In this document: piece by piece, positions 7,965-51,530 of the stretch
How the letters are laid out: every line of letters starts with the position of its first letter
Position numbering within the stretch: the stretch's first letter is position 1
Position numbers and translations under genes: made by a program
Source of the DNA: a virus
Taxonomy: Duplodnaviria > Caudoviricetes
IMG/VR virus record: IMGVR_UViG_3300002124_000003
Location: 1 to 54,008 of that record
Strand: one strand, 5' to 3'
DNA: 54,008 nucleotides
The notes under the pieces: model-generated
What the model was told of the DNA's origin: nothing
What the model saw: the letters and a program-made list of their open reading frames with translations, nothing else
The model's database searches: none

Positions 7965-8010
7965 GATGTACTCCTACCAGCAGAGTCCGCTGCTGTGCCG
8001 TAATTTGGAC

Positions 8011-8035
8011 AAACAAAAACGCCCCAGAGGGCGTC
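8011..8035 (-). terminator. Intrinsic terminator
   Basis: GACGCCC-TCTG-GGGCGTT-TTTGTTT. Confidence 0.75.
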
Positions 8036-8068
8036 GCTTGTAGGAAATGTATTGAGACTAAGTGTCAG

Positions 8069-8365
8069 TTATTCGTATGGGTAGAACTTCCCATCATCCT
8101 TGAGATACACCAGCATTCCCGGTTCAACACGAACACCGGCTCCGATGCTCTTCAGGGATGCTAGTGCCACAGGTTCGCCAACCTCGAAAAAGCCCGATGT
8201 GACAATGGTATGATCGTTCAATGCGATGCCGATAGGCCCTTGAGGAACGGATTGTACGATTTCATAATCATTGATGACTTCCGTCTGTGGCAACTTTGCG
8301 CCGACAGCGGCTGCCCCGACTCCGATACCCAGTCGCCTAAGAAAATCACGTCGTGAGATCATCAT
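8069..8365 (-). CDS. Tat-signal protein, moron-like
   Basis: SRRDFL twin-arginine motif plus h-region; GGAGG RBS; own extended -10 (TGGTAGAAT, 8392-8400) and terminator. Confidence 0.75.
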   Translation of the reverse strand: MMISRRDFLRRLGIGVGAAAVGAKLPQTEVINDYEIVQSVPQGPIGIALNDHTIVTSGFFEVGEPVALASLKSIGAGVRVEPGMLVYLKDDGKFYPYE

Positions 8366-8415
8366 TCCTCCACTGCTGCTTATGATACCTTATTCTACCA
8401 CATTCGGCGTTGGAA

Positions 8416-14045: not shown

Positions 14046-15635
14046 TCAATCCTCCACAGAAAACGTCATGCCGGGTTGTACGGCGCTGAAGGTCATGTCA
14101 GGCTGTGTAGCACTGAACGTCATACCGGGTTGTACGGCACTAAAGGTCATCACCAGCAGCCCAGAAATAGTGACCGGTTCGGTATCATTGGCACTCAGGG
14201 TCAGTGTGCCCAACGTCACGGCCAGCGTGCCAGAGATGTCGGCTGCGCCCGCCGCGCTTAGACTGAGACTGTCCAGACTGACCGCCGCCGCGCCGGACAC
14301 GTCTACCGTTCCGGCACTGGCAACAGTCAGGCTGCCTAAAGTAATGGCCGCGTCGCCGGTACTGCCCGAAGCGCCTGCCGCCGACAGAGTCGCATCGTCG
14401 AGCGTGACCGCCAATGCCCCGACGATGGCCGCCGTTCCGCTGCTGGCAAGCGTCAGCGCATCGAAGGTCAGATCGGCTGCGCCCGAAATATCGACTGCGC
14501 CTGCCGAGGCGACAGTCAGCGCACTTAGCGTGATAGCGCCCGCGCCTGCAATGTCCACCGTCCCCGCCGCCGCCGCATTTAGCGCGCCGAGGGTGACATT
14601 GAGATCACCGGTCAGCGCGCCGCTGTCGTTGGCTACCAGGGTCACATCGTCGAGCGTGACCGCCAGCGCGCCAGAGACATCGACTGTGCCGGCTGCGGTA
14701 GTGGTGAGTGCATCCAGTGTGACCCCGGCAGCGCCGGAAACAGCCACTGTCCCGGCAGCGGCAGTCGTCACTACGCCCAGGGTAATCGCAGCATTGCCTG
14801 CGACTTCGACCGTGCCCGCTGCGGCGCTGGTCAGCGCCTCCAGCGTAAGCGCTGCTGACCCGACTACCTCATTAGTGCCGCTGGCCGCTGAGGTCAAGGT
14901 CGCCAGAGTAACCGCTGCCGCCCCGCTTATCGCTGCGGTTCCGGCGGCGCTGGTCGTGACCGCCCCTAACGTGGGCGCGGCGTTCCCGGTTATGTCTACT
15001 GTACCGGCAGACACAGCGGTCAGCGCGCCGAGAGTAATGGCAGCCGCACCGGTAATTTCAGTATTAACTACCCCACCGCCGAAATCATTCAGGCGCGTGG
15101 TGGTGCTGGTCGAGCCGATGCCGATGTTGCCTGAGCCGGTGTAGGTGCTGCTGGTCGTGGACAGGACTTGTGTATAGCCTGAGCCGGTATTGATCAGGGC
15201 ACGCAGCGTTGTCCCGATAATCTCGATACCAACGCCGTTGCCGTTCGTGAGTTCCTGCGAACCGCTGGTCAATACGGTACTGACCGCATTGTCGAGCCGT
15301 TGAATTTCAAACGTATCTGTACCCGAGGCGGCGACTACATGAACGTCATAACCGTCCAGTGTGGCTAACGAACCGGTTTGCTGCAACCTGGCGAAAATAT
15401 ATCCGCTGCTGCCATCCGGCGGCTTGGTCGAAACGATGGCATAGGCTTCGACATCATCCGTAAAGGCGGCGGCGGACCAGAAAGCAAAGGCCGCGCCGCC
15501 AGCCACGCTATCCGGGGCCGCCAGATTGGAGGCGATACTCCAACTGCCGACCAGTGTTTCATTCCAGTTCGCGCCGAGGCTGCCGGAATTGGCGCGGTCA
15601 AAGGTGTCCAGAACGCCGGTGGTTGGGAAGGCCAC
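14046..15635 (-). CDS. Fibre-like protein: lectin-like N-domain, Ala/Gly/Thr repeat stalk, MTFS repeat tail
   Basis: DTFDRANSGSLGANW N-terminus; ~22-aa repeats (GxAAxTLxxLTxxAxGTV); C-terminal 9-aa repeats. Confidence 0.6.
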   Translation of the reverse strand: MAFPTTGVLDTFDRANSGSLGANWNETLVGSWSIASNLAAPDSVAGGAAFAFWSAAAFTDDVEAYAIVSTKPPDGSSGYIFARLQQTGSLATLDGYDVHVVAASGTDTFEIQRLDNAVSTVLTSGSQELTNGNGVGIEIIGTTLRALINTGSGYTQVLSTTSSTYTGSGNIGIGSTSTTTRLNDFGGGVVNTEITGAAAITLGALTAVSAGTVDITGNAAPTLGAVTTSAAGTAAISGAAAVTLATLTSAASGTNEVVGSAALTLEALTSAAAGTVEVAGNAAITLGVVTTAAAGTVAVSGAAGVTLDALTTTAAGTVDVSGALAVTLDDVTLVANDSGALTGDLNVTLGALNAAAAGTVDIAGAGAITLSALTVASAGAVDISGAADLTFDALTLASSGTAAIVGALAVTLDDATLSAAGASGSTGDAAITLGSLTVASAGTVDVSGAAAVSLDSLSLSAAGAADISGTLAVTLGTLTLSANDTEPVTISGLLVMTFSAVQPGMTFSATQPDMTFSAVQPGMTFSVED

Positions 15636-23598: not shown

Positions 23599-23900
23599 CT
23601 GTCTTTTTGCGCGCACTCACTCGCGGCGAGTATAGCACCGACTATAGCACCTATGCTGTACCGGCAGGATATGAGCGTTGTGACGATCTGAACGAAGCAC
23701 TGGACAGGCTCACACGCATACCGGAACGCTGGAGCCATTGGTGGGACATCCTGTGGGTGGAAGATACCAACGGGCGCATTCTGGCGCGCAAGGAACGCTG
23801 GGAAGCCATCCAGGTCCGCTATGAGGGTTGGTGGATGACTTTGGACGAATATCAAAAACTGCGCGCTGAGGAGCGTGTGGATTGGGAGGATACGCCATGA
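23595..23900 (+). CDS. Hypothetical protein
   Basis: GGAGGGAG RBS, ATGA overlap. Confidence 0.6.
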   Translation: MTVFLRALTRGEYSTDYSTYAVPAGYERCDDLNEALDRLTRIPERWSHWWDILWVEDTNGRILARKERWEAIQVRYEGWWMTLDEYQKLRAEERVDWEDTP

Positions 23901-33791: not shown

Positions 33792-33850
33792 AAGCCCCGG
33801 CATTCACCGGGGCAGGGGAGCAGAGCAGCGCTTCGGCGCTGTTTTTGTTT
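33792..33850. terminator. Convergent terminators between early arm and lysis block
   Basis: GCCCCGG/CCGGGGC hairpin and CAGCGC-TTCG-GCGCTG-TTTTT. Confidence 0.8.
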
Positions 33851-34332
33851 TAGCCTTTCGCGCCGCTGGCAAACGCCGGGCGTTGATAGCCCACAAATCC
33901 GACGTTCGCAGCTTTCATGACGTGGTAGGTGGCGGCACTGGCCGTCTGGCGTGCAAACAAGCCTGCCAGCGCAGGGGCAATCGCCAGCAGCACCCCGATG
34001 ACGGTGTTAAACTGCACGCCATACCCCAGGTAACTCGTCAGCCAATAGATGACCGTCACAATCCCGGCGACCACGAATTGCAGCGTCCGGGCGGGCACGA
34101 CGTTCAGCGCGGGAATATGTTTGAGCAGCGCCACGAAAAACGTGGTAATCGGGCTGTCCACGAGGCCAATCAGGATCGAGACAATGGTCGCAATCAGCAG
34201 GTTGGCGGCCTGATCCAGCGGAATGACCGGCAGGTCAGGAGTGGGCGGCGGGACTTCCTGCGCCAGCGCGGGCAGGGCAAAGAGCGCCAGCAGCACCAGC
34301 ACGATGAACAACACAAAGATGAGACGTTTCAT
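33850..34332 (-). CDS. Putative holin
   Basis: Signal-like N-terminus plus several TM helices, adjacent to the endolysin candidate. Confidence 0.55.
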   Translation of the reverse strand: MKRLIFVLFIVLVLLALFALPALAQEVPPPTPDLPVIPLDQAANLLIATIVSILIGLVDSPITTFFVALLKHIPALNVVPARTLQFVVAGIVTVIYWLTSYLGYGVQFNTVIGVLLAIAPALAGLFARQTASAATYHVMKAANVGFVGYQRPAFASGAKG

Positions 34333-36236: not shown

Positions 36237-36486
36237 TGATCAACTCCTGGATGGCTTCCTGATGTCGAATAGCCTCTCGTGGAATCTTTAATAACTCGCC
36301 CGCCTTGTCTTCTGAAATAGATTGTGCGATGACAATACACTCGTCGTTTTCCAGAATGAGCCAGCCCACAGTGTGCATTAACATCACGGGCGCGCGGGCC
36401 GCTTCAAGGTATTCCGCACGGTCATACCATCCGGGATGTGAGCTTGTATCGCGCCAGCGAATGTACACTGGTCGTAGACTATCCAT
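36220..36486 (-). CDS. Conserved phage protein (Sm-like)
   Basis: VYIRWRDT...GW...TVGWLI...IVIAQS...KIPR.AI. Confidence 0.65.
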   Translation of the reverse strand: MDSLRPVYIRWRDTSSHPGWYDRAEYLEAARAPVMLMHTVGWLILENDECIVIAQSISEDKAGELLKIPREAIRHQEAIQELINGSDI

Positions 36487-37187
36487 CAGGCGGCCTCGTC
36501 CTTTCGGGCGGCGGGGTCATCGCTGTCCAGCGTCGCCTCGGCAGCGGCGGCATCGGCTATCGTCAGGCGCGGTGGGGCGGGCGGCGTGTGGTCGTCCGGT
36601 TCGGTCGTGGGCGGCGGGGGCTTGCGTTCCTTGAGCAGCTTGATCATTTCTTCCAACTCCACAATCCGCTTTTCAGCATGTTTCAACGAGGCCGCAATTT
36701 CATCGCGTTCGCGTTCTAATTGTTCGCACAGACCGGTTTTTTCGCGCAGGCTTCGATTTTCTGTTTCCAGGTTCAACAGGCGTGTGGCTTGTTCATTCAC
36801 CCGCCCGGTGATGCGATCCAGTTCCAGGCGCAGGTTGGTCTTTTCAGTCGCCACGTTTGCCAGCGTATCCGAGTGGCGCGCTTCCTGAGCCACCATGTTT
36901 TGCGTGTGGCGCATTTCCTGCTCGACGCGCTGCCGTTCGATCAATTCCAACTTGCCATTCATCGAGGCCAAATCCAGATCGTGCCGGGCGATCACCTGCG
37001 CCTGGGCGTCTAGCTGGCGCTGTTTGGCCTCATTTTCTTCCTGAAGGTCATGACGTTCCACACTCAGGCTTTCGACCAGGTCCTTGAGGTTAGGGTTTTT
37101 GCGGTTGGTCACTTTCAGGGTTCCATAGGATGCAAAGATGGTTGTGACAAACACCGCCAGTAGCTTGACGAAATCTTCCCAGGTCAT
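36486..37187 (-). CDS. Membrane-anchored coiled-coil protein (lysis block)
   Basis: N-terminal TM helix then heptads; ATGA overlap at 37184-37187. Confidence 0.65.
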   Translation of the reverse strand: MTWEDFVKLLAVFVTTIFASYGTLKVTNRKNPNLKDLVESLSVERHDLQEENEAKQRQLDAQAQVIARHDLDLASMNGKLELIERQRVEQEMRHTQNMVAQEARHSDTLANVATEKTNLRLELDRITGRVNEQATRLLNLETENRSLREKTGLCEQLERERDEIAASLKHAEKRIVELEEMIKLLKERKPPPPTTEPDDHTPPAPPRLTIADAAAAEATLDSDDPAARKDEAA

Positions 37188-37648
37188 GCGTCCCCCCGGC
37201 GAATGGCGCGCATGAGCAGATAACCGCCCAGCAGCGTCAATGACCCGATGGTTTTGACGCCAAACCACACGGCGCCCGGATTGTACTGGGTCAGAGCCAC
37301 CACGAAGATGACAATCGGCGTCACCACGATATAGATGACCGTCGGCAGATACAGCAGCGGGGCAGGGGCCTGGCGGCTGATCAGCAGGACCAGTCCCGAC
37401 AGGGTGAGGATCAGCATTGCCAGCGTATGCAGCCCCAGGCTGACGTGATAGTCACGCATCACGATCTGACCCATGCCCGACAACGGCTCGGCAATATTCG
37501 ACAGTCCGATGACCAGTGCCGCCAGCCCGACCACACGGTAGACAGGCAGCGATTCAAACAGCCAATCGACGACACGATCTATACGATCAAGCCAACGCTG
37601 CATCATTTTCGCATTATTCCAGTTGGGATTACAATGGGTGCTGAGCAT
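37184..37648 (-). CDS. Multi-pass membrane protein (holin-like)
   Basis: About four hydrophobic segments. Confidence 0.6.
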   Translation of the reverse strand: MLSTHCNPNWNNAKMMQRWLDRIDRVVDWLFESLPVYRVVGLAALVIGLSNIAEPLSGMGQIVMRDYHVSLGLHTLAMLILTLSGLVLLISRQAPAPLLYLPTVIYIVVTPIVIFVVALTQYNPGAVWFGVKTIGSLTLLGGYLLMRAIRRGDA

Positions 37649-37718
37649 GTCTACAGCCTCTTGTAGCGTGCTTGTAGCACCCCCGGCGGCGTTTGCGCGT
37701 CGTCGGGGCTGCTGCTAT

Positions 37719-37740
37719 AAAAAACGGCCTGATGGCCGTT
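37719..37740 (-). terminator. Intrinsic terminator ending the ncRNA
   Basis: AACGGCC-ATCA-GGCCGTT-TTTT. Confidence 0.85.
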
Positions 37741-38121
37741 GGGTTGTTAGTCGGGCACTGAGGCGGCCCGCGCTCCCGTCGTCTATGGTGACGAGCCATG
37801 TCCTGCAAGGTGGGGCACGGCTAACACCCCGGTAGTGCTGTTATGCCGTTAACGGGCAAGTCATGGTTTTAAGGCCAGTCCCGCGTACCAGCCTGTGGTC
37901 TGGGTGCTCCGGCAAATGCCATCTTTGCACCCGACACCGGATTTTGCTAGGTGTGCCCAACAAATCGGATGAAGCGAATATGTCCCCACCTCGGTAGGGC
38001 ATCAACCAATATTGCTAGGCGCACCATAGCTCTCACAACCTGCGGCCAGTGCTTCAGACGGGATGCCGGTAAACCGGGCCGTCAGCCTGCGCGGGGTTGC
38101 GCCGCGCCTCCTGACCGCTTG

Positions 38122-38191
38122 TCTGCCGGGCGGACTCGAACCGCCGTCTCCGGGCCGTGACCCGGCGTGCTGCCCGTTGCACCACAACCAG
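38122..38191 (-). tRNA. Degenerate tRNA-like element
   Basis: D-arm GTGC/GCAC and perfect T-arm GGCGG-TTCGAGT-CCGCC, but a 6-nt anticodon loop (TCACGG), an imperfect acceptor stem and no CCA. Confidence 0.6.
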
Positions 38192-38295
38192 CATAGTTGC
38201 CCTCGGCTGGCCGTCGTGGGCATCGACAGGCCGCCGTCCAGTGGGGCAGGGCGTAGCGAACGCCGTCATTCCCTGCTGCCCCATGTACTGAAAAT

Positions 38296-38306
38296 AGTCT
38301 AGCACA
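38296..38306 (-). promoter_or_regulatory. Extended -10 promoter for the ncRNA
   Basis: TGTGCTAGACT; no good -35. Confidence 0.55.
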
Positions 38307-38351
38307 AATCCCGCCGTTTGACCGTTATAATCAGGTTAGATTTCCCGCGCG

Positions 38352-38549
38352 TTAGGCAGGCGGTGACTCAGGCGCATGAACTTCGCGCACCGTGACCCGC
38401 AGGTGCAGCGTCTTGACATCGTACCAGCCGCCGCACACGTTGCAAAACACGCGCTGACAGTCGCCATACTGGTTCGCCCAGAGATGGGTCGTGCGCGCTT
38501 TCCAGTCCGGGCCGTTGGTCGGGGTATGGCAGTTCGGGCAATGCATCAC
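38352..38549 (-). CDS. Small Zn-ribbon protein
   Basis: CPNC...CNVC. Confidence 0.6.
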   Translation of the reverse strand: MMHCPNCHTPTNGPDWKARTTHLWANQYGDCQRVFCNVCGGWYDVKTLHLRVTVREVHAPESPPA

Positions 38550-38728
38550 GGCTCCTTATTCGGCGGGGCAGGGGGCTTCCACATATCCATGATGAACATA
38601 TAATTCGTGTCCGCATTCGTGCCGGGATCGAAATAGCGGGTACGAATGAATAGGACATCCTTGCCCATGACCATCCCCGCCCAATGGGTGTTGCCTGCGA
38701 TGTATGAGACATAGGTTGGATGCATCAT
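38546..38728 (-). CDS. Hypothetical protein
   Basis: GAGG RBS, overlaps. Confidence 0.5.
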   Translation of the reverse strand: MMHPTYVSYIAGNTHWAGMVMGKDVLFIRTRYFDPGTNADTNYMFIMDMWKPPAPPNKEP

Positions 38729-39006
38729 GATTCCTCGTGGGCGCTCGACGGGGTAGGGGGCTTGAGATATTTCATCGCTTTACGCAAATCATCGCCCACC
38801 ACTTGCCAGTCCCCGGCGATAGCTTGTGTATCGGTTTGTTCCAATATGCGCATTGTTTCAGGATCAGGCGGGCTGCCAAATAGTGAGAATGAACCCATCC
38901 CCCTGAGAAATGATTGGAACCACCCTCGCCTCTTTGCCATCCCACCCCCTGTCGCCCGCGAAATAATTATGAGAAACGACCTAAGCCAGATAAGGGCACA
39001 TATCAT
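38725..39006 (-). CDS. Hypothetical protein (start possibly 38940)
   Basis: SFLRGMGS...D.QAIAGDWQVVGDDLRKAM motif. Confidence 0.55.
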   Translation of the reverse strand: MICALIWLRSFLIIISRATGGGMAKRRGWFQSFLRGMGSFSLFGSPPDPETMRILEQTDTQAIAGDWQVVGDDLRKAMKYLKPPTPSSAHEES

Positions 39007-39069
39007 TTCACCTACAATCTCATAAATCAGGTTATGTCGGTAAAATAACTGGCCTTCTCAACGGTCAAC

Positions 39070-39765
39070 TCAAAATGGGAAGTCAGGCACAGTCTCGCGC
39101 TCTTTAGAGATTCGGCGCTGTCGCCATGCCTTGCGCAGTCGATACCACCAGCGTGGTTTATGCCATTTGAGACAGGCTTTCAGGGGCGCAAGTTGGTGCT
39201 TTCGAGTGTCTACCCCATGACGCCAGAGATACATCACGACCACAGCAAACCAGTGTTCGCGTAACTTGGCGCTATGAAATTCTGGAAGTCCGCACTCGTC
39301 GTGGCTCTCGAACATAACCTTATCATCCCATTCAATGAGATTGATGTTCAACCAATCGACCAAAGGTGCTGGCTGATGCCACACGTAGCGACCAACGCGA
39401 AACTTGATGAGGATAGTTTCGCGGTAGACGCCTGAGCCGCTGCACTTCCGGCAACTATCCCATTCGTCACCGCTCCAATCGTAGGGGTCTTTGCCATCCC
39501 CGCCGCAAAAACTACACGTTAGGGTTTGCTTTTGTTTCGTGACAGTATCCACCAATCCGGCATGATACAGATAGCGCAGCAGATCGCTTTTGAGTGCATA
39601 GGTTCGTTCGCTGTAGTCGCTGCGCTTGGTGATGTAGGCCGAACGATTCAGCCATAGCATCGCCCTCAGCACATGCTTGAGCGTAGCGTTTCGCGCTCGA
39701 AACCTCAGCCATATCCAGCGCCCGAAGAAATACCACGCTTGTTTGTCGAAGGCAATCATGTTCAC
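39070..39765 (-). CDS. Protein with a DnaJ-like Zn-finger pair
   Basis: CSFCGGDG...CRKCSGSG. Confidence 0.65.
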   Translation of the reverse strand: MNMIAFDKQAWYFFGRWIWLRFRARNATLKHVLRAMLWLNRSAYITKRSDYSERTYALKSDLLRYLYHAGLVDTVTKQKQTLTCSFCGGDGKDPYDWSGDEWDSCRKCSGSGVYRETILIKFRVGRYVWHQPAPLVDWLNINLIEWDDKVMFESHDECGLPEFHSAKLREHWFAVVVMYLWRHGVDTRKHQLAPLKACLKWHKPRWWYRLRKAWRQRRISKERETVPDFPF

Positions 39766-39780
39766 CTCACAGAATCGGTT

Positions 39781-40047
39781 TTATCCGCCCGTCGCTGGCA
39801 TCCACACGACCCCCGCATTGGTCTTCGCAAATGGGTCATGCTGCACGGCGTGCAGGGTCACGCGGGGCAGCCAACCCTCTTCGTACCACGTATCACCATG
39901 CCGGAAAAGTGGCGTATGGAATTCATCGGCAAGAAAACGCACCTCGTATTCACAGCGGGCCATGGCCTCGTCGTAAGACAGCCCCAGCGTGAGAATGACG
40001 CGCTCCCCGGCGTTGGTGAATGCGTAGCAGTTATAGAATGCTACCAC
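39781..40047 (-). CDS. Hypothetical protein
   Basis: ORF in cluster orientation. Confidence 0.5.
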   Translation of the reverse strand: MVAFYNCYAFTNAGERVILTLGLSYDEAMARCEYEVRFLADEFHTPLFRHGDTWYEEGWLPRVTLHAVQHDPFAKTNAGVVWMPATGG

Positions 40048-50271: not shown

Positions 50272-50338
50272 CGAAAACGGCGCGAGAAACCCCGGCCTTC
50301 AGGCCTGGGGAGGAATAGCGCCTTATCCTTTCACTTAT

Positions 50339-50367
50339 TTGACGATACGGACGATTTGTGCTATACT
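50339..50367 (+). promoter_or_regulatory. tnpB promoter (likely leaderless mRNA)
   Basis: TTGACG-17 bp-TATACT, with ATG 7 nt later. Confidence 0.75.
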
Positions 50368-50374
50368 TCTGAGT

Positions 50375-51496
50375 ATGAAACTAACTGCGACTGTGAAGCT
50401 CAAGCCGACACCAGAACAACGGCAACTTTTGTTTGAAACCCTGCAAACGGCGAATGCCGCCTGCAATGCCATCAGTGAGGTGATCTGGCGCGAAAAGGTC
50501 TGGTCGCAGTACAACGTTCACAAATTGGTGTACTATCCTATTCGTGAGCAATTTAACCTCACGGCGCAGCTTGTGATTCGCTGCATCAGCAAAGCGGTAG
50601 ACGCCTATAAAGTGGACAAGAAAACGAAGCGCCAATTCAAAAAGCACGGCAGCATCGCTTACGACAGCCGGGTACTGAACTACCGCATTCCCGACAGCGC
50701 GGTTTCGATCTGGCTGATGGGCGGGCGCGAAACGATTGACTTTGTGACCGGCGAACATCAACTGGCCTTGTTGCAGTACCAGCAGGGCGAAAGCGATCTG
50801 GTCTACCGCAAAGGCGAGTTCTACCTGTTTGCGACCTGCGAAGTGCCGGACGAAGTGCCGTTTGACCCGGACGGGTTCCTCGGTGTGGACTTGGGCGTTG
50901 TCAATATTGCAGTCGATAGCGACAGCGAAGTCCACAGCGCCAGCGCGGTCAACAACGTGCGGTTTCGTCACCGCCGCCTGCGAACCAGGTTGCAAAAGAA
51001 AAGCACACTTGGCACGCATCGCCGCCTGAAGAAATTGGCGGGTAAAGAGCAACGTTTCGCCAAACACGTGAACCATACGATCAGCAAGCACCTCGTAGCG
51101 AAGGCTCAAGGCACTGGACGCGGGATAGCGTTGGAAGAACTGACGCACATCCGCGACAGGATCACGGCTCGGAAGCCCCGACGCGCTATGTTGTCGAGTT
51201 GGTCGTTCCACCAGCTTCGCAGCTTTATCCAATACAAGGCGCAGCGTGCAGGCGTGCCGGTTACTGCGGTTGACCCGCGCAACACGTCGCGTACCTGCCC
51301 CGCCTGCGGTTGTGTGGATAAAGCCAATCGTCCTACTCAAAGTACCTTCTCCTGTGTTCAGTGTGGATGCGTCGGTCTCGCTGACCACTTCGCGGCGGTT
51401 GAAATATCCCGCCGGGCCGTTGTAAACCGGCCATACTGCTCGGATGCCCCGCAGAACCTTGCGGGCGCAGCGCCAGAGCAAAGCCCCCACCTTTAG
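50375..51496 (+). CDS. tnpB: RNA-guided endonuclease TnpB (373 aa)
   Basis: GVDLG, IALEEL, CPACG/CVQCG Zn finger, ADHFAA: RuvC D-E-D triad intact. Confidence 0.95.
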   Translation: MKLTATVKLKPTPEQRQLLFETLQTANAACNAISEVIWREKVWSQYNVHKLVYYPIREQFNLTAQLVIRCISKAVDAYKVDKKTKRQFKKHGSIAYDSRVLNYRIPDSAVSIWLMGGRETIDFVTGEHQLALLQYQQGESDLVYRKGEFYLFATCEVPDEVPFDPDGFLGVDLGVVNIAVDSDSEVHSASAVNNVRFRHRRLRTRLQKKSTLGTHRRLKKLAGKEQRFAKHVNHTISKHLVAKAQGTGRGIALEELTHIRDRITARKPRRAMLSSWSFHQLRSFIQYKAQRAGVPVTAVDPRNTSRTCPACGCVDKANRPTQSTFSCVQCGCVGLADHFAAVEISRRAVVNRPYCSDAPQNLAGAAPEQSPHL

Positions 51497-51530
51497 GTGT
51501 GGGGTCGTTTACGCCGGTATGCCTCCCAGA
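51330..51530 (+). ncRNA. Predicted omegaRNA/reRNA (5' end approximate); guide GCCGGTATGCCTCCCA...
   Basis: Established TnpB architecture: the scaffold overlaps the tnpB 3' end and RE, and the guide comes from the flank starting at 51513. Confidence 0.6.

What the first reader, a model, noticed from the sequence alone, without database searches (positions are those of the whole stretch)
37719..38306. Candidate novel ~570-nt structured phage RNA with an embedded tRNA-like module and a possible pseudoknot
Seen: this is the largest ORF-poor gap in a tightly packed genome, bounded on the minus strand by TG-C-TAGACT (38296-38304) and an intrinsic terminator (37719-37740). Nearly all of it can pair. 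Local helices: 38276-83/38242-49, 38224-36/38204-16, a tRNA-like cloverleaf, 38089-38107, 38057-38083, 37902-37932 and 37934-37954. GCCUAGCAA..AUUGG/CCGAU..UUGUUGGGC needs three G-U pairs, which favours the minus strand. Long-range pairs: CUAUGGUG(38029-22)/CACCAUAG(37790-83), GCACUG(38052-47)/CAGUGC(37760-55) and GGUUGU(38040-35)/ACAACC(37747-42); the last two cross, as in a pseudoknot. Known: large phage RNAs such as GOLLD and ROOL are associated with tRNAs, but I recognise no GOLLD, ROOL, tmRNA, RNase P or group I/II signature here. Inference: an undescribed large ncRNA class, directly upstream of the lysis genes.
Basis: partly seen in the sequence, partly recalled or inferred. Interest (0 to 1): 0.9.

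Follow-up and report, generated by a model that had tools for sequence, protein, structure and literature searches.

The report
Non-coding phage unit with dead tRNA
A 700-base gene-free stretch in front of an uncultured phage's lysis genes looks like its own small transcription unit carrying a tRNA look-alike that cannot decode, but nothing shows that it is one large folded RNA of a new class.

Summary
The sequence features are real. Window 37649-38351 has no coding signal in any frame. On the minus strand it holds an extended -10 promoter-like site (38296-38304), a tRNA-like cloverleaf (38122-38191; Rfam tRNA 36.3 bits, cut-off 29) and a clean intrinsic terminator (37723-37740). The cloverleaf has a 6-nt anticodon loop and a bulged acceptor stem. 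These features predict an untranslated RNA of about 570 nt just upstream of a membrane-protein (probably lysis) cassette.

The claim of one ornate RNA with a pseudoknot is not supported. The long-range pairings occur at chance frequency. Only two hairpin modules (37900-38053) fold clearly better than shuffles. The whole region ranks 7th of 364 genome windows for GC-corrected stability. No Rfam family other than tRNA matches.

I could fetch no homologue: 8 viral, 2 metagenome and 2 genome collection scans, 401 Anaerolineae-class genomes and the cultured phages gave nothing, so covariation is untestable. The scan's own index also has no look-alike on other DNA. One contig in one metagenome run joins 37808 to 38198, skipping 389 nt that include the tRNA-like element. 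This is weak evidence that the core is strain-variable cargo.

My best reading is a modular, non-coding, moron-like leader unit with a tRNA-derived element. Moderate interest.

The parts
38296..38307 (-). Extended -10 promoter-like site TTGTGCTAGACT (hexamer TAGACT at 38296-38301). There is no good -35. I infer a transcript start near 38289.
   Evidence: Motif enrichment. It matches the TnpB gene's promoter in 15 of 16 bases; that promoter has TTGACG, 17 nt, TATACT with a TG before it. The strict sigma-70 scan did not call this site.
38192..38289 (-). 5' part: two hairpins, H1 (38242-38283) and H2 (38204-38236).
   Evidence: Pairing verified. Module z -1.41, and 16 of 200 shuffles fold as well: not significant.
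38122..38191 (-). tRNA-like cloverleaf. The D, anticodon and T stems are perfect and the D- and T-loops look canonical. The anticodon loop has 6 nt, the acceptor stem has one bulge and two G-U pairs, and no CCA is encoded.
   Evidence: ARAGORN; Rfam tRNA 36.3 bits with alignment; sequence read. The cloverleaf is the centroid fold at -29.2 kcal/mol, against an MFE of -29.6.
38054..38121 (-). Two local hairpins (38089-38107 and 38057-38083).
   Evidence: z -0.63, not significant.
37955..38053 (-). Long hairpin 37955-38021 with G-U pairs, preceded by a short stem. This is the most strand-specific structure.
   Evidence: -28.5 kcal/mol for 67 nt. Module z -2.31 on the minus strand and +0.99 on the plus strand.
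37900..37954 (-). Two hairpins (37934-37954 and 37902-37932).
   Evidence: z -2.58, and 1 of 200 shuffles folds as well; the plus strand has z -1.91.
37741..37899 (-). Weakly structured 3' part.
   Evidence: Module 37800-37899 has z +0.86.
37719..37740 (-). Intrinsic terminator: a 7-bp stem with 5 G-C pairs and a 4-nt loop, then six T.
   Evidence: and the sequence.
37809..38197 (.). The 389 nt skipped by one metagenome contig. The segment includes the tRNA-like element and the best hairpins.
   Evidence: table 5: joint 37808 to 38198, run X14, 1 contig, depth 6.98, side 30, both 0, 'between: not known'. The reads were laid at likeness 80.
38352..38549 (-). Upstream neighbour: a 65-aa Cys-rich, zinc-ribbon-like protein. 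The listed 114-aa ORF 38368-38712 has non-coding codon usage and is probably not the real gene.
   Evidence: The Atlas gives only generic zinc-ribbon look-alikes.
37184..37648 (-). Downstream neighbour: a 154-aa protein with three hydrophobic 19-aa segments (holin-like; this is inference). It is preceded by AAGAGG and has no promoter-like site of its own.
   Evidence: for the hydrophobic segments, for the sequence, for the absence of a promoter call on the minus strand between 37722 and 37649.

Best explanation
This is a non-coding, modular transcription unit in front of the lysis cassette, not one large folded machine.

Shown at the sequence level: a host-type extended -10 promoter-like site, then about 570 nt without coding signal, then a strong intrinsic terminator, all on the strand of the late genes.

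Inferred:
- Host RNA polymerase starts near 38289 and mostly stops near 37720.
- The transcript is a string of independent hairpins around a tRNA-derived cloverleaf. The cloverleaf keeps its stems and loop sequences but cannot decode or be charged normally.
- The cloverleaf most likely serves as an RNase P / RNase Z cutting site that splits the RNA into a 5' piece of about 100 nt, the tRNA-like piece, and a 3' piece of about 400 nt. Alternatively it is simply tolerated.
- The holin-like gene has no promoter of its own, so the lysis genes would be fed by polymerase reading through the terminator, as in the promoter-leader-terminator arrangement ahead of the phage lambda lysis genes.
- The middle 389 nt, with the tRNA-like element, is accessory cargo in that leader and may be absent from a co-occurring strain.
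For: - No coding signal, no protein family at E <= 0.001 and no protein relatives.
- The promoter motif recurs. It matches the -10 hexamers of the phage's own scan-called promoters, TATACT and TAGAAT, and it is near-identical to the TnpB promoter.
- The terminator is clear.
- The tRNA-like element is found by two programs.
- The same phage has another unit flanked by a promoter-like site and a terminator, TGGTAGAAT at 8392-8400(-) and a terminator at 8035-8018(-), around a small gene. Such inserted units are therefore part of its architecture.
- Only local modules are unusually stable, and the long-range pairs are at chance level.
- The contig joint that skips 37809-38197 keeps the promoter side, H1, H2 and the terminator side.
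- No minus-strand promoter is called between the terminator and the holin-like start.
Against: - There are no RNA data at all, so transcription, the RNA ends and any processing are untested.
- The site has no -35 element, and the strict sigma-70 scan did not call it.
- The narrow promoter motif was defined post hoc.
- Terminator-like hairpins are common in this genome and are not enriched over shuffles.
- The deletion joint rests on one contig in one run, laid at likeness 80 with a 30-nt side. The tool warns that such joints can come from other organisms or repeats.
- There are no relatives, so selection on any part cannot be judged.
- No antiterminator is identified. The upstream 65-aa zinc-ribbon protein has no family.
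Confidence: 0.4

Rival explanations
1. Non-functional debris. A captured tRNA gene is decaying (two 1-nt lesions) inside an ordinary spacer or 3' untranslated tail of the tail-gene operon. The terminator ends that operon, and the promoter-like word is incidental or weak.
For: - The tRNA-like element scores 36 bits, has a 6-nt anticodon loop and a bulged acceptor stem.
- A contig lacks the core, so it may be dispensable.
- Four of the seven modules fold like shuffles, and the region ranks 7th of 364 windows, which is not an outlier.
- Degenerate tRNA-like sequences also sit in the tRNA arrays of other phages (L003 and L006).
- No relatives were found anywhere.
Against: - All 14 pairs of the D, anticodon and T stems are Watson-Crick. 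The lesions sit only at the two functional ends. That is suggestive, but it rests on two events.
- The promoter-like site matches the TnpB promoter in 15 of 16 bases.
- Hairpin modules 37900-38053 are stable and strand-specific.
- The sequence is held near-identically by runs of 13 studies. This may only reflect one young lineage.
Confidence: 0.3
2. One reading: a single ornate structured RNA of about 570 nt, of a new class, with an embedded tRNA mimic and long-range or pseudoknotted architecture. It would be comparable in size and phage/tRNA context to ROOL or GOLLD.
For: - Minus-strand z is -3.32 against shuffles, and plus-strand z is -0.27.
- The predicted length is close to the ROOL average of 581 nt. 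ROOL and GOLLD are often near tRNAs and in prophages (PMC5737381, passages read).
- The region is non-coding with a defined promoter-like site and terminator.
- The MFE fold has a long-range stem that encloses the core.
Against: - No ROOL or GOLLD match even at E <= 10.
- Long-range complementarity is at chance level.
- Stability is local, and the strand asymmetry is not robust to an 86-nt shift.
- A variant contig lacks 389 nt of the core.
- There is no second member, so there is no covariation and no class.
Confidence: 0.15
3. The region encodes one or more small proteins, for example the 76-aa ORF that starts at ATG 38284 only about 5 nt after the inferred transcript start (nearly leaderless), or peptides under 30 aa.
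For: - The ORF 38054-38305(-) is open.
- A gene caller in the public collection called a 46-aa product here (P0008).
- With the 389 nt removed, the frame of that ORF continues in phase into ORF 37629-37808 (coordinates).
Against: - Codon-usage scores are negative: -0.11 for the 83-aa ORF and -0.56 for 37629-37808. Real small genes of this phage score 0.2 to 0.8.
- The product is Arg-rich and of low complexity, overlaps the tRNA-like element, and has no Shine-Dalgarno sequence.
- It has no family and no relatives.
Confidence: 0.05
4. A phage attachment site (attP) built on a tRNA sequence for integration into a host tRNA gene.
For: tRNA-related sequence in a non-coding region. Temperate phages often integrate at tRNA genes (established knowledge, recalled).
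Against: - None of the 72 ORFs matches an integrase family in Pfam: all 22 matched families are listed, and none is a tyrosine or serine recombinase catalytic domain.
- The whole cloverleaf is present, not just a 3' part.
- The 621-nt query had only 5 short matches in 401 Anaerolineae-class genomes. None lies at a tRNA gene, and all lie inside long ORFs.
Confidence: 0.03

Closest known systems
Phage tRNA genes, pseudo-tRNAs and tRNA-cluster stable RNAs (for example T4 RNAs C and D; recalled, and named in the scan's earlier notes)
   Same: A cloverleaf with canonical D- and T-loops carried by a phage in a non-coding stretch. It would be transcribed with flanking structured RNA and probably cut out by RNase P.
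   Different: This is a single element rather than a cluster. The 6-nt anticodon loop and bulged acceptor stem mean it cannot decode. It is embedded in a unit of about 570 nt with its own promoter-like site and terminator.
ROOL (RF03087) and GOLLD (RF01998) large ornate RNAs
   Same: Similar size (ROOL averages 581 nt), and a phage or prophage setting associated with tRNAs (PMC5737381).
   Different: No covariance-model match. There is no evidence here for multistem junctions or pseudoknots, and no family of relatives.
Phage lambda late leader: promoter PR', the 194-nt '6S' RNA and terminator tR' ahead of the lysis genes S, R and Rz. In Stx phages, tRNA genes and cargo lie in the same interval (recalled knowledge).
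   Same: A host-type promoter, a non-coding leader and a strong terminator lie directly upstream of the lysis genes. A small gene sits just upstream. The interval appears to accept tRNA-type cargo.
   Different: No Q-type antiterminator is recognisable. The leader is three times longer. Here the structural genes lie upstream rather than downstream. Nothing has been tested.
mascRNA / MALAT1-type tRNA-like processing signals (RF01684)
   Same: A tRNA-like fold without a decoding loop, embedded in a longer non-coding transcript, where RNase P and RNase Z define the RNA ends.
   Different: The known family is eukaryotic. The match is only 22.8 bits against a cut-off of 42.5. This is an analogy, not membership.
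Bacterial Y RNA-like YrlA (tRNA mimic bound with Ro60/Rsr; PMC4201824, title and start of abstract seen)
   Same: A non-coding RNA with a tRNA-like module; some are phage-borne (recalled).
   Different: No Ro60-type protein among 72 ORFs. No Rfam match other than tRNA. The RNA here is much longer.

Membership tests
tRNA (Rfam RF00005) | Cloverleaf that scores above the family's gathering cut-off | tested here: met
   36.3 bits against 29, E 9.3e-6, model positions 1-71. ARAGORN also calls it. It was not listed in the whole-window gathering run.
tRNA (Rfam RF00005) | 7-nt anticodon loop with a readable 3-nt anticodon | tested here: not met
   The loop is UCACGG, 6 nt. ARAGORN reports 'tRNA-???' with a 2-nt anticodon '(ac)'.
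tRNA (Rfam RF00005) | Regular 7-bp acceptor stem | tested here: not met
   The 3' strand is one base short (a gap in the alignment), and the stem has two G-U pairs. No CCA is encoded, which alone is not disqualifying.
ROOL (RF03087) / GOLLD (RF01998) | Match to the family covariance model | tested here: not met
   No match at gathering thresholds in the window, and none at E <= 10 in 37500-38500.
ROOL / GOLLD | Conserved multistem junctions and pseudoknots supported by covariation | not testable with these tools
   No relatives were obtained. In the single sequence, long-range complementarity is at chance level.
tmRNA | tRNA-like domain plus a tag reading frame, detected by ARAGORN or Rfam | tested here: not met
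   ARAGORN finds no tmRNA. No tmRNA family is listed; one lower-scoring match from the same clan was suppressed under the tRNA hit.
mascRNA-menRNA (RF01684) | Score above the gathering cut-off | tested here: not met
   22.8 bits against 42.5.
YrlA / Y RNA with Ro60 | Ro60 (Rsr) gene in the same genome and a Y RNA model match | tested here: not met
   No such Pfam family among 72 ORFs, and no Rfam match. The host genome is unknown.
Lambda-type late leader (promoter, terminated leader, lysis genes) | Promoter and intrinsic terminator directly upstream of the lysis cassette | tested here: met
   Sequence level only. That the downstream genes are lysis genes is inferred from hydrophobic segments.
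Lambda-type late leader | Q-type antiterminator encoded upstream that acts at the promoter | tested here: inconclusive
   The upstream 65-aa zinc-ribbon-like protein has no significant family hit, and the Atlas gives only generic look-alikes.
Phage 'moron' (inserted unit with its own promoter and terminator) | Flanked by its own promoter and terminator, and present in some strains but absent in others | tested here: inconclusive
   Promoter-like site and terminator are present. The presence/absence evidence is a single contig joint, and it removes only the inner 389 nt.

The most novel reading that the evidence does not exclude
A new phage RNA gene of about 570 nt in a phage that probably infects Chloroflexota. 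A decoding-dead tRNA mimic, which keeps the conserved D- and T-loop sequences of a tRNA elbow, would be built into a larger folded RNA. That RNA would act in trans, for example as a decoy or scaffold for host enzymes that bind the tRNA elbow, or for tRNA-targeting defences, and would be made just before lysis. If relatives exist in the unreachable contigs that encode P0003-P0007, it would found a new class of large phage RNA alongside ROOL and GOLLD.
Probability: 0.15. Interest if true: 0.7.

Novelty: new variant of a known kind. Interest (0 to 1): 0.35.

Why it matters
If the unit is transcribed as predicted, it would be a non-coding 'moron' in a phage of a poorly studied host group; the TnpB gene's closest relatives are in Anaerolineae and Caldilineae genomes. 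It would also be a natural case of a tRNA reduced to its stems and D/T loops and embedded in a longer RNA. That bears on two questions: how phages use tRNA mimicry, and how lysis genes are timed outside the lambda paradigm. As it stands the element is a single sequence without expression or comparative data. Its present value is as a well-delimited candidate for a simple transcript-mapping and RNase P test, not as a discovery.

Tried and rejected
Homologue searches, all empty or irrelevant:
- blastn (distant mode) of the region against cultured phages: no match.
- tblastn of the 540-aa neighbour and the 529-aa ORF 14046-15635 (my unconfirmed guess at the large terminase) against cultured phages: no match.
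- The search for related loci in viral contigs with four single neighbour proteins and with alignment A1: none.
- Metagenome contigs with the 154-aa protein and with A1: none.
- Genome contigs with A1: none.
- DNA patterns in viral contigs. The D-loop plus T-loop pattern gave 11 loci. Most are ordinary tRNAs. The exceptions are a tmRNA-like mini-domain in L002, an uncalled tRNA-like sequence in L003/L006, and a match cut at the end of contig L008. The 23-nt flank gave 0. The repeated 11-mer gave 4 loci, all tandem coding repeats of unrelated phages.
- The 621-nt region against 401 Anaerolineae-class genomes: 5 genomes with short matches of 22-52 nt, none at a tRNA gene and all inside long ORFs, so chance.
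- A1 against the same 401 genomes: 20 genomes with weak single-domain matches and no close relative. One of the 20 is G394, flagged unpublished.
- Single-sequence covariance model R1 (37900-38053): 0 of 151 genomes. Among the window and 28 held loci it found only itself, plus one weak antisense overlap on the window (13 bits, E 0.25).
- The scan's own index: 0 look-alike windows.

Relatives that exist but could not be fetched: the 540-aa neighbour has relatives at 41-50% identity, P0003-P0007, one of them on a 48,678-nt contig.

Expression: no RNA holder was listed for this stretch. The one RNA-labelled run that I laid (X19) gave only three pieces of 36-40 nt in coding flanks at under 90% likeness. 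This says nothing about expression.

Ideas rejected:
- A derivative of the phage's TnpB element, or a stand-alone guide RNA. The region shares only the 16-nt promoter stretch with that element, and nothing with 41 TnpB loci from genomes.
- An iteron-type origin or a diversity-generating template repeat. There are no significant direct repeats and no copy elsewhere in the window.
- A group I or group II intron. The 389-nt segment's ends (5' exon ending in A, segment ending in C) do not fit the splice-site rules I recall, and no intron model matches.
- Ancestry of the tRNA-like element. Against 125 tRNAs of the held loci, the best global alignment score is to a tRNA-Gln(CTG) at 77% identity, with no clear isotype.
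- The gap 7965-8415 as a second such RNA. It holds a small gene with a twin-arginine-like signal and folds like shuffles, z -0.38.

Literature: two searches turned up no described RNA of this kind. I saw only listings and the starts of abstracts, plus passages of PMC5737381. Supplements were not opened.
Full report
CONTEXT. The window is a complete 54,008-bp virus record with 74-bp direct terminal repeats. It is an orphan. Ten neighbouring proteins have no Pfam hit that reaches its cut-off (SH3_3 scores 20.3 bits against 27) and one weak PHROG hit of unknown function. Across all 72 ORFs, Pfam recognises only 22 families. These are a C5 DNA methylase, primase-polymerase with AAA helicase-type domains, ERF, a scaffold protein, helix-turn-helix domains, an antidote-type domain, a weak SH3 and ABC hit, and a TnpB transposon nuclease. 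There is no integrase, reverse transcriptase or Ro60. PHROGs adds a large terminase and a major head protein, but that output lists only the first 25 of 33 families. The TnpB protein has its closest relatives (70%, 65% and 60% identity) in Anaerolineaceae, Caldilineaceae and Anaerolineae genome bins, so a Chloroflexota host is likely. Near-identical DNA is held by 17 runs (at least half of the sampled words) from soil and groundwater metagenomes. The 20 holding rows come from 13 studies, and five rows are possible sources of the record itself.

THE OBSERVATION. Reading the minus strand, the small zinc-ribbon-like gene ends at 38352 and the next gene starts at 37648. In the 703 nt between them no frame shows the codon usage of this phage's genes. 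None of the eight ORFs inside matches Pfam or PHROGs at E <= 0.001; the only row at the E <= 0.1 actually used is a chance-level Pfam row for 38063-38302(+). The longest minus-strand ORF has no relative except a 46-aa gene call on the same genome. The listed 114-aa ORF 38368-38712 also has non-coding codon usage. The real upstream genes are more likely 38546-38728 and 38352-38549.

TGCTAGACT at 38296-38304 belongs to a motif that recurs in the phage. TGNTAKANT occurs 9 times against 4.35 expected, and 3 of 100 shuffles reach 9. The narrower TGCTAKAST occurs 5 times against 0.55, and 0 of 100 shuffles reach 5, but I chose that pattern. One of these sites is the -10 of a textbook promoter, TTGACG, 17 nt, TATACT with a TG, in front of the TnpB gene. 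It shares 15 of 16 bases with the site at 38296. Another sits just upstream of a gene start. The phage's other scan-called promoters use TATACT or TAGAAT as the -10. The site at 38296 lacks a -35 and was not called by the strict scan.

THE tRNA-LIKE MODULE. ARAGORN calls one gene in the whole window, 'tRNA-???' at 38121-38191(-), with a 2-nt 'anticodon'. Rfam's tRNA model gives 36.3 bits against a cut-off of 29, with E 9.3e-6. The run at gathering thresholds over the whole window listed nothing; I attribute this to its faster filters. In the alignment the D, anticodon and T stems are all Watson-Crick and the D- and T-loops look canonical. The anticodon loop has 6 nt, the acceptor 3' strand is one base short, and no CCA is encoded. 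The element therefore fails two defining features of a working tRNA while keeping its stems and loop sequences. Compared with 125 tRNAs in the held loci it shows no clear isotype.

IS IT ONE LARGE STRUCTURED RNA? The whole region folds to -264.9 kcal/mol on the minus strand (z -3.32, 0 of 100 shuffles as good) and to -245.9 on the plus strand (z -0.27). A control within the genome is less flattering. Among 364 windows of 588 nt, after correction for G+C, the minus-strand region ranks 7th (z -1.95), and a plus-strand window shifted by 86 nt is just as stable. Taken module by module, only three parts beat shuffles on the minus strand: 37955-38053 (z -2.31, plus strand +0.99), 37900-37954 (z -2.58) and the terminator part (z -2.08). 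The 5' hairpins, the tRNA-like module, 38054-38121 and 37800-37899 do not. Perfect long-range complementary words are as frequent as in dinucleotide shuffles: 3 against 3.2 for 8-mers, 14 against 11.5 for 7-mers, and 58 against 43 +/- 8 for 6-mers. The proposed long-range helices and pseudoknot are therefore not evidence. No Rfam family other than tRNA approaches significance. mascRNA scores 22.8 bits against 42.5, and ROOL, GOLLD, tmRNA, RNase P and introns are absent even at E <= 10.

A STRAIN VARIANT. I laid the contigs of four runs on 36400-39800. Run X14 holds the main form and also diverged contigs, about 12% different in the flanking genes. One contig in that run joins 37808 directly to 38198, skipping 389 nt that include the tRNA-like module and the two best hairpin modules. 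The joint has a 30-nt shorter side and no ambiguity. It is marked 'between: not known' and was laid at likeness 80; the tool warns that such joints can come from other organisms or repeats. If it is real, the promoter side, hairpins H1 and H2, the 3' hairpins and the terminator remain, and the joined form still folds as separate hairpins. That would make the middle of the unit dispensable cargo. The segment has no terminal repeats or target duplication that I could see, no copy elsewhere in the phage and no similarity to the phage's TnpB element or to 41 TnpB loci from genomes.

SURROUNDINGS. The gene downstream (37184-37648) has three hydrophobic 19-aa segments. The next (36486-37268) has one N-terminal hydrophobic segment followed by a long stretch rich in charged residues. 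The 540-aa protein has a weak SH3 match, and 33850-34332 has four hydrophobic segments. A lysis cassette is a reasonable inference but is not shown. No minus-strand promoter is called between the terminator and the holin-like start. Intergenic terminators also occur elsewhere in the late genes, for example at 8035-8018 and 485-468. The phage has at least one clear unit flanked by a promoter-like site and a terminator around a small secreted-looking protein gene: TGGTAGAAT at 8392-8400(-), an ORF, and the terminator at 8035-8018(-).

COMPARATIVE EVIDENCE: NONE OBTAINABLE. The one productive scan was for the unlinked TnpB gene. Cultured phages gave nothing. In 401 Anaerolineae-class genomes the region gave only chance matches inside ORFs. 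A single-sequence covariance model of the best-folded part found nothing in 151 genomes. There is no hit to a large-RNA Rfam family. Folding beats shuffles overall but only locally. Covariation and a discrete transcript remain untested.

VERDICT. The best-supported reading (0.4) is a modular, non-coding transcription unit ahead of the lysis genes, with a tRNA-derived, decoding-dead element as probable cargo and processing site. It is analogous in layout to the lambda late leader and to phage morons. Debris from a decaying tRNA gene (0.3) and a genuinely new large RNA (0.15) remain open. A small protein (0.05) and an attachment site (0.03) are unlikely. Closest known things are phage pseudo-tRNAs and tRNA-cluster RNAs, ROOL and GOLLD (similar size and context only; PMC5737381), the lambda PR'-6S-tR' leader (recalled), and mascRNA-type processing signals. 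It is a member of none of these families by the tests that I could run.

Noticed in passing
window 50272-51512 (TnpB ORF 50375-51496, +): A TnpB (IS605-family OrfB, Cas12f-like) gene with its own strong promoter (TTGACG, 17 nt, TATACT with a TG, at 50339-50367) sits among the tail genes. Its closest relatives, at 60-70% identity, are in Anaerolineaceae, Caldilineaceae and Anaerolineae genome bins, which points to a Chloroflexota host.
   Followed up: partly
window 8018-8400 (-): A unit flanked by a promoter-like site and a terminator: extended -10 TGGTAGAAT (8392-8400), a ribosome-binding site, an ORF of about 100 aa beginning MMISRRDFLRRLG (twin-arginine-like signal), and a terminator at 8035-8018, just upstream of the scaffold gene. 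My crude gene caller missed the ORF.
   Followed up: partly
window 38352-38728 (-): The listed 114-aa ORF 38368-38712 has non-coding codon usage. Two small genes fit better: 38546-38728 (60 aa) and 38352-38549 (65 aa, Cys-rich and zinc-ribbon-like). The second sits directly upstream of the promoter-like site and is a candidate regulator.
   Followed up: partly
L002 6982-7058 (-), viral contig of 69 kb: A 77-nt mini tRNA-like domain that matches the two ends of the tmRNA model (18 bits, cut-off 47) with only 19 nt in place of the 316-nt body. ARAGORN does not call it.
   Followed up: no
L003 4102-4144 and L006 3871-3913 (-): Inside large phage tRNA arrays there is a tRNA-like sequence with normal D- and T-arms that ARAGORN does not call. 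It lies between two tRNA-Pro genes and may be a pseudo-tRNA.
   Followed up: no
window 23629-23649 (-): Two tandem copies of the extended -10 motif (TGCTATAGT and TGCTATACT, 12 nt apart) point antisense into the plus-strand early genes. They may be an antisense promoter pair.
   Followed up: no
window 36400-38560, run X14: A second, diverged strain co-occurs with the main form. It differs by about 12% in 36619-36932 and by about 20%, with small indels, in 38309-38379. The main form was 100% identical in two of the other runs laid (X15, and X16 apart from 2 letters).
   Followed up: partly
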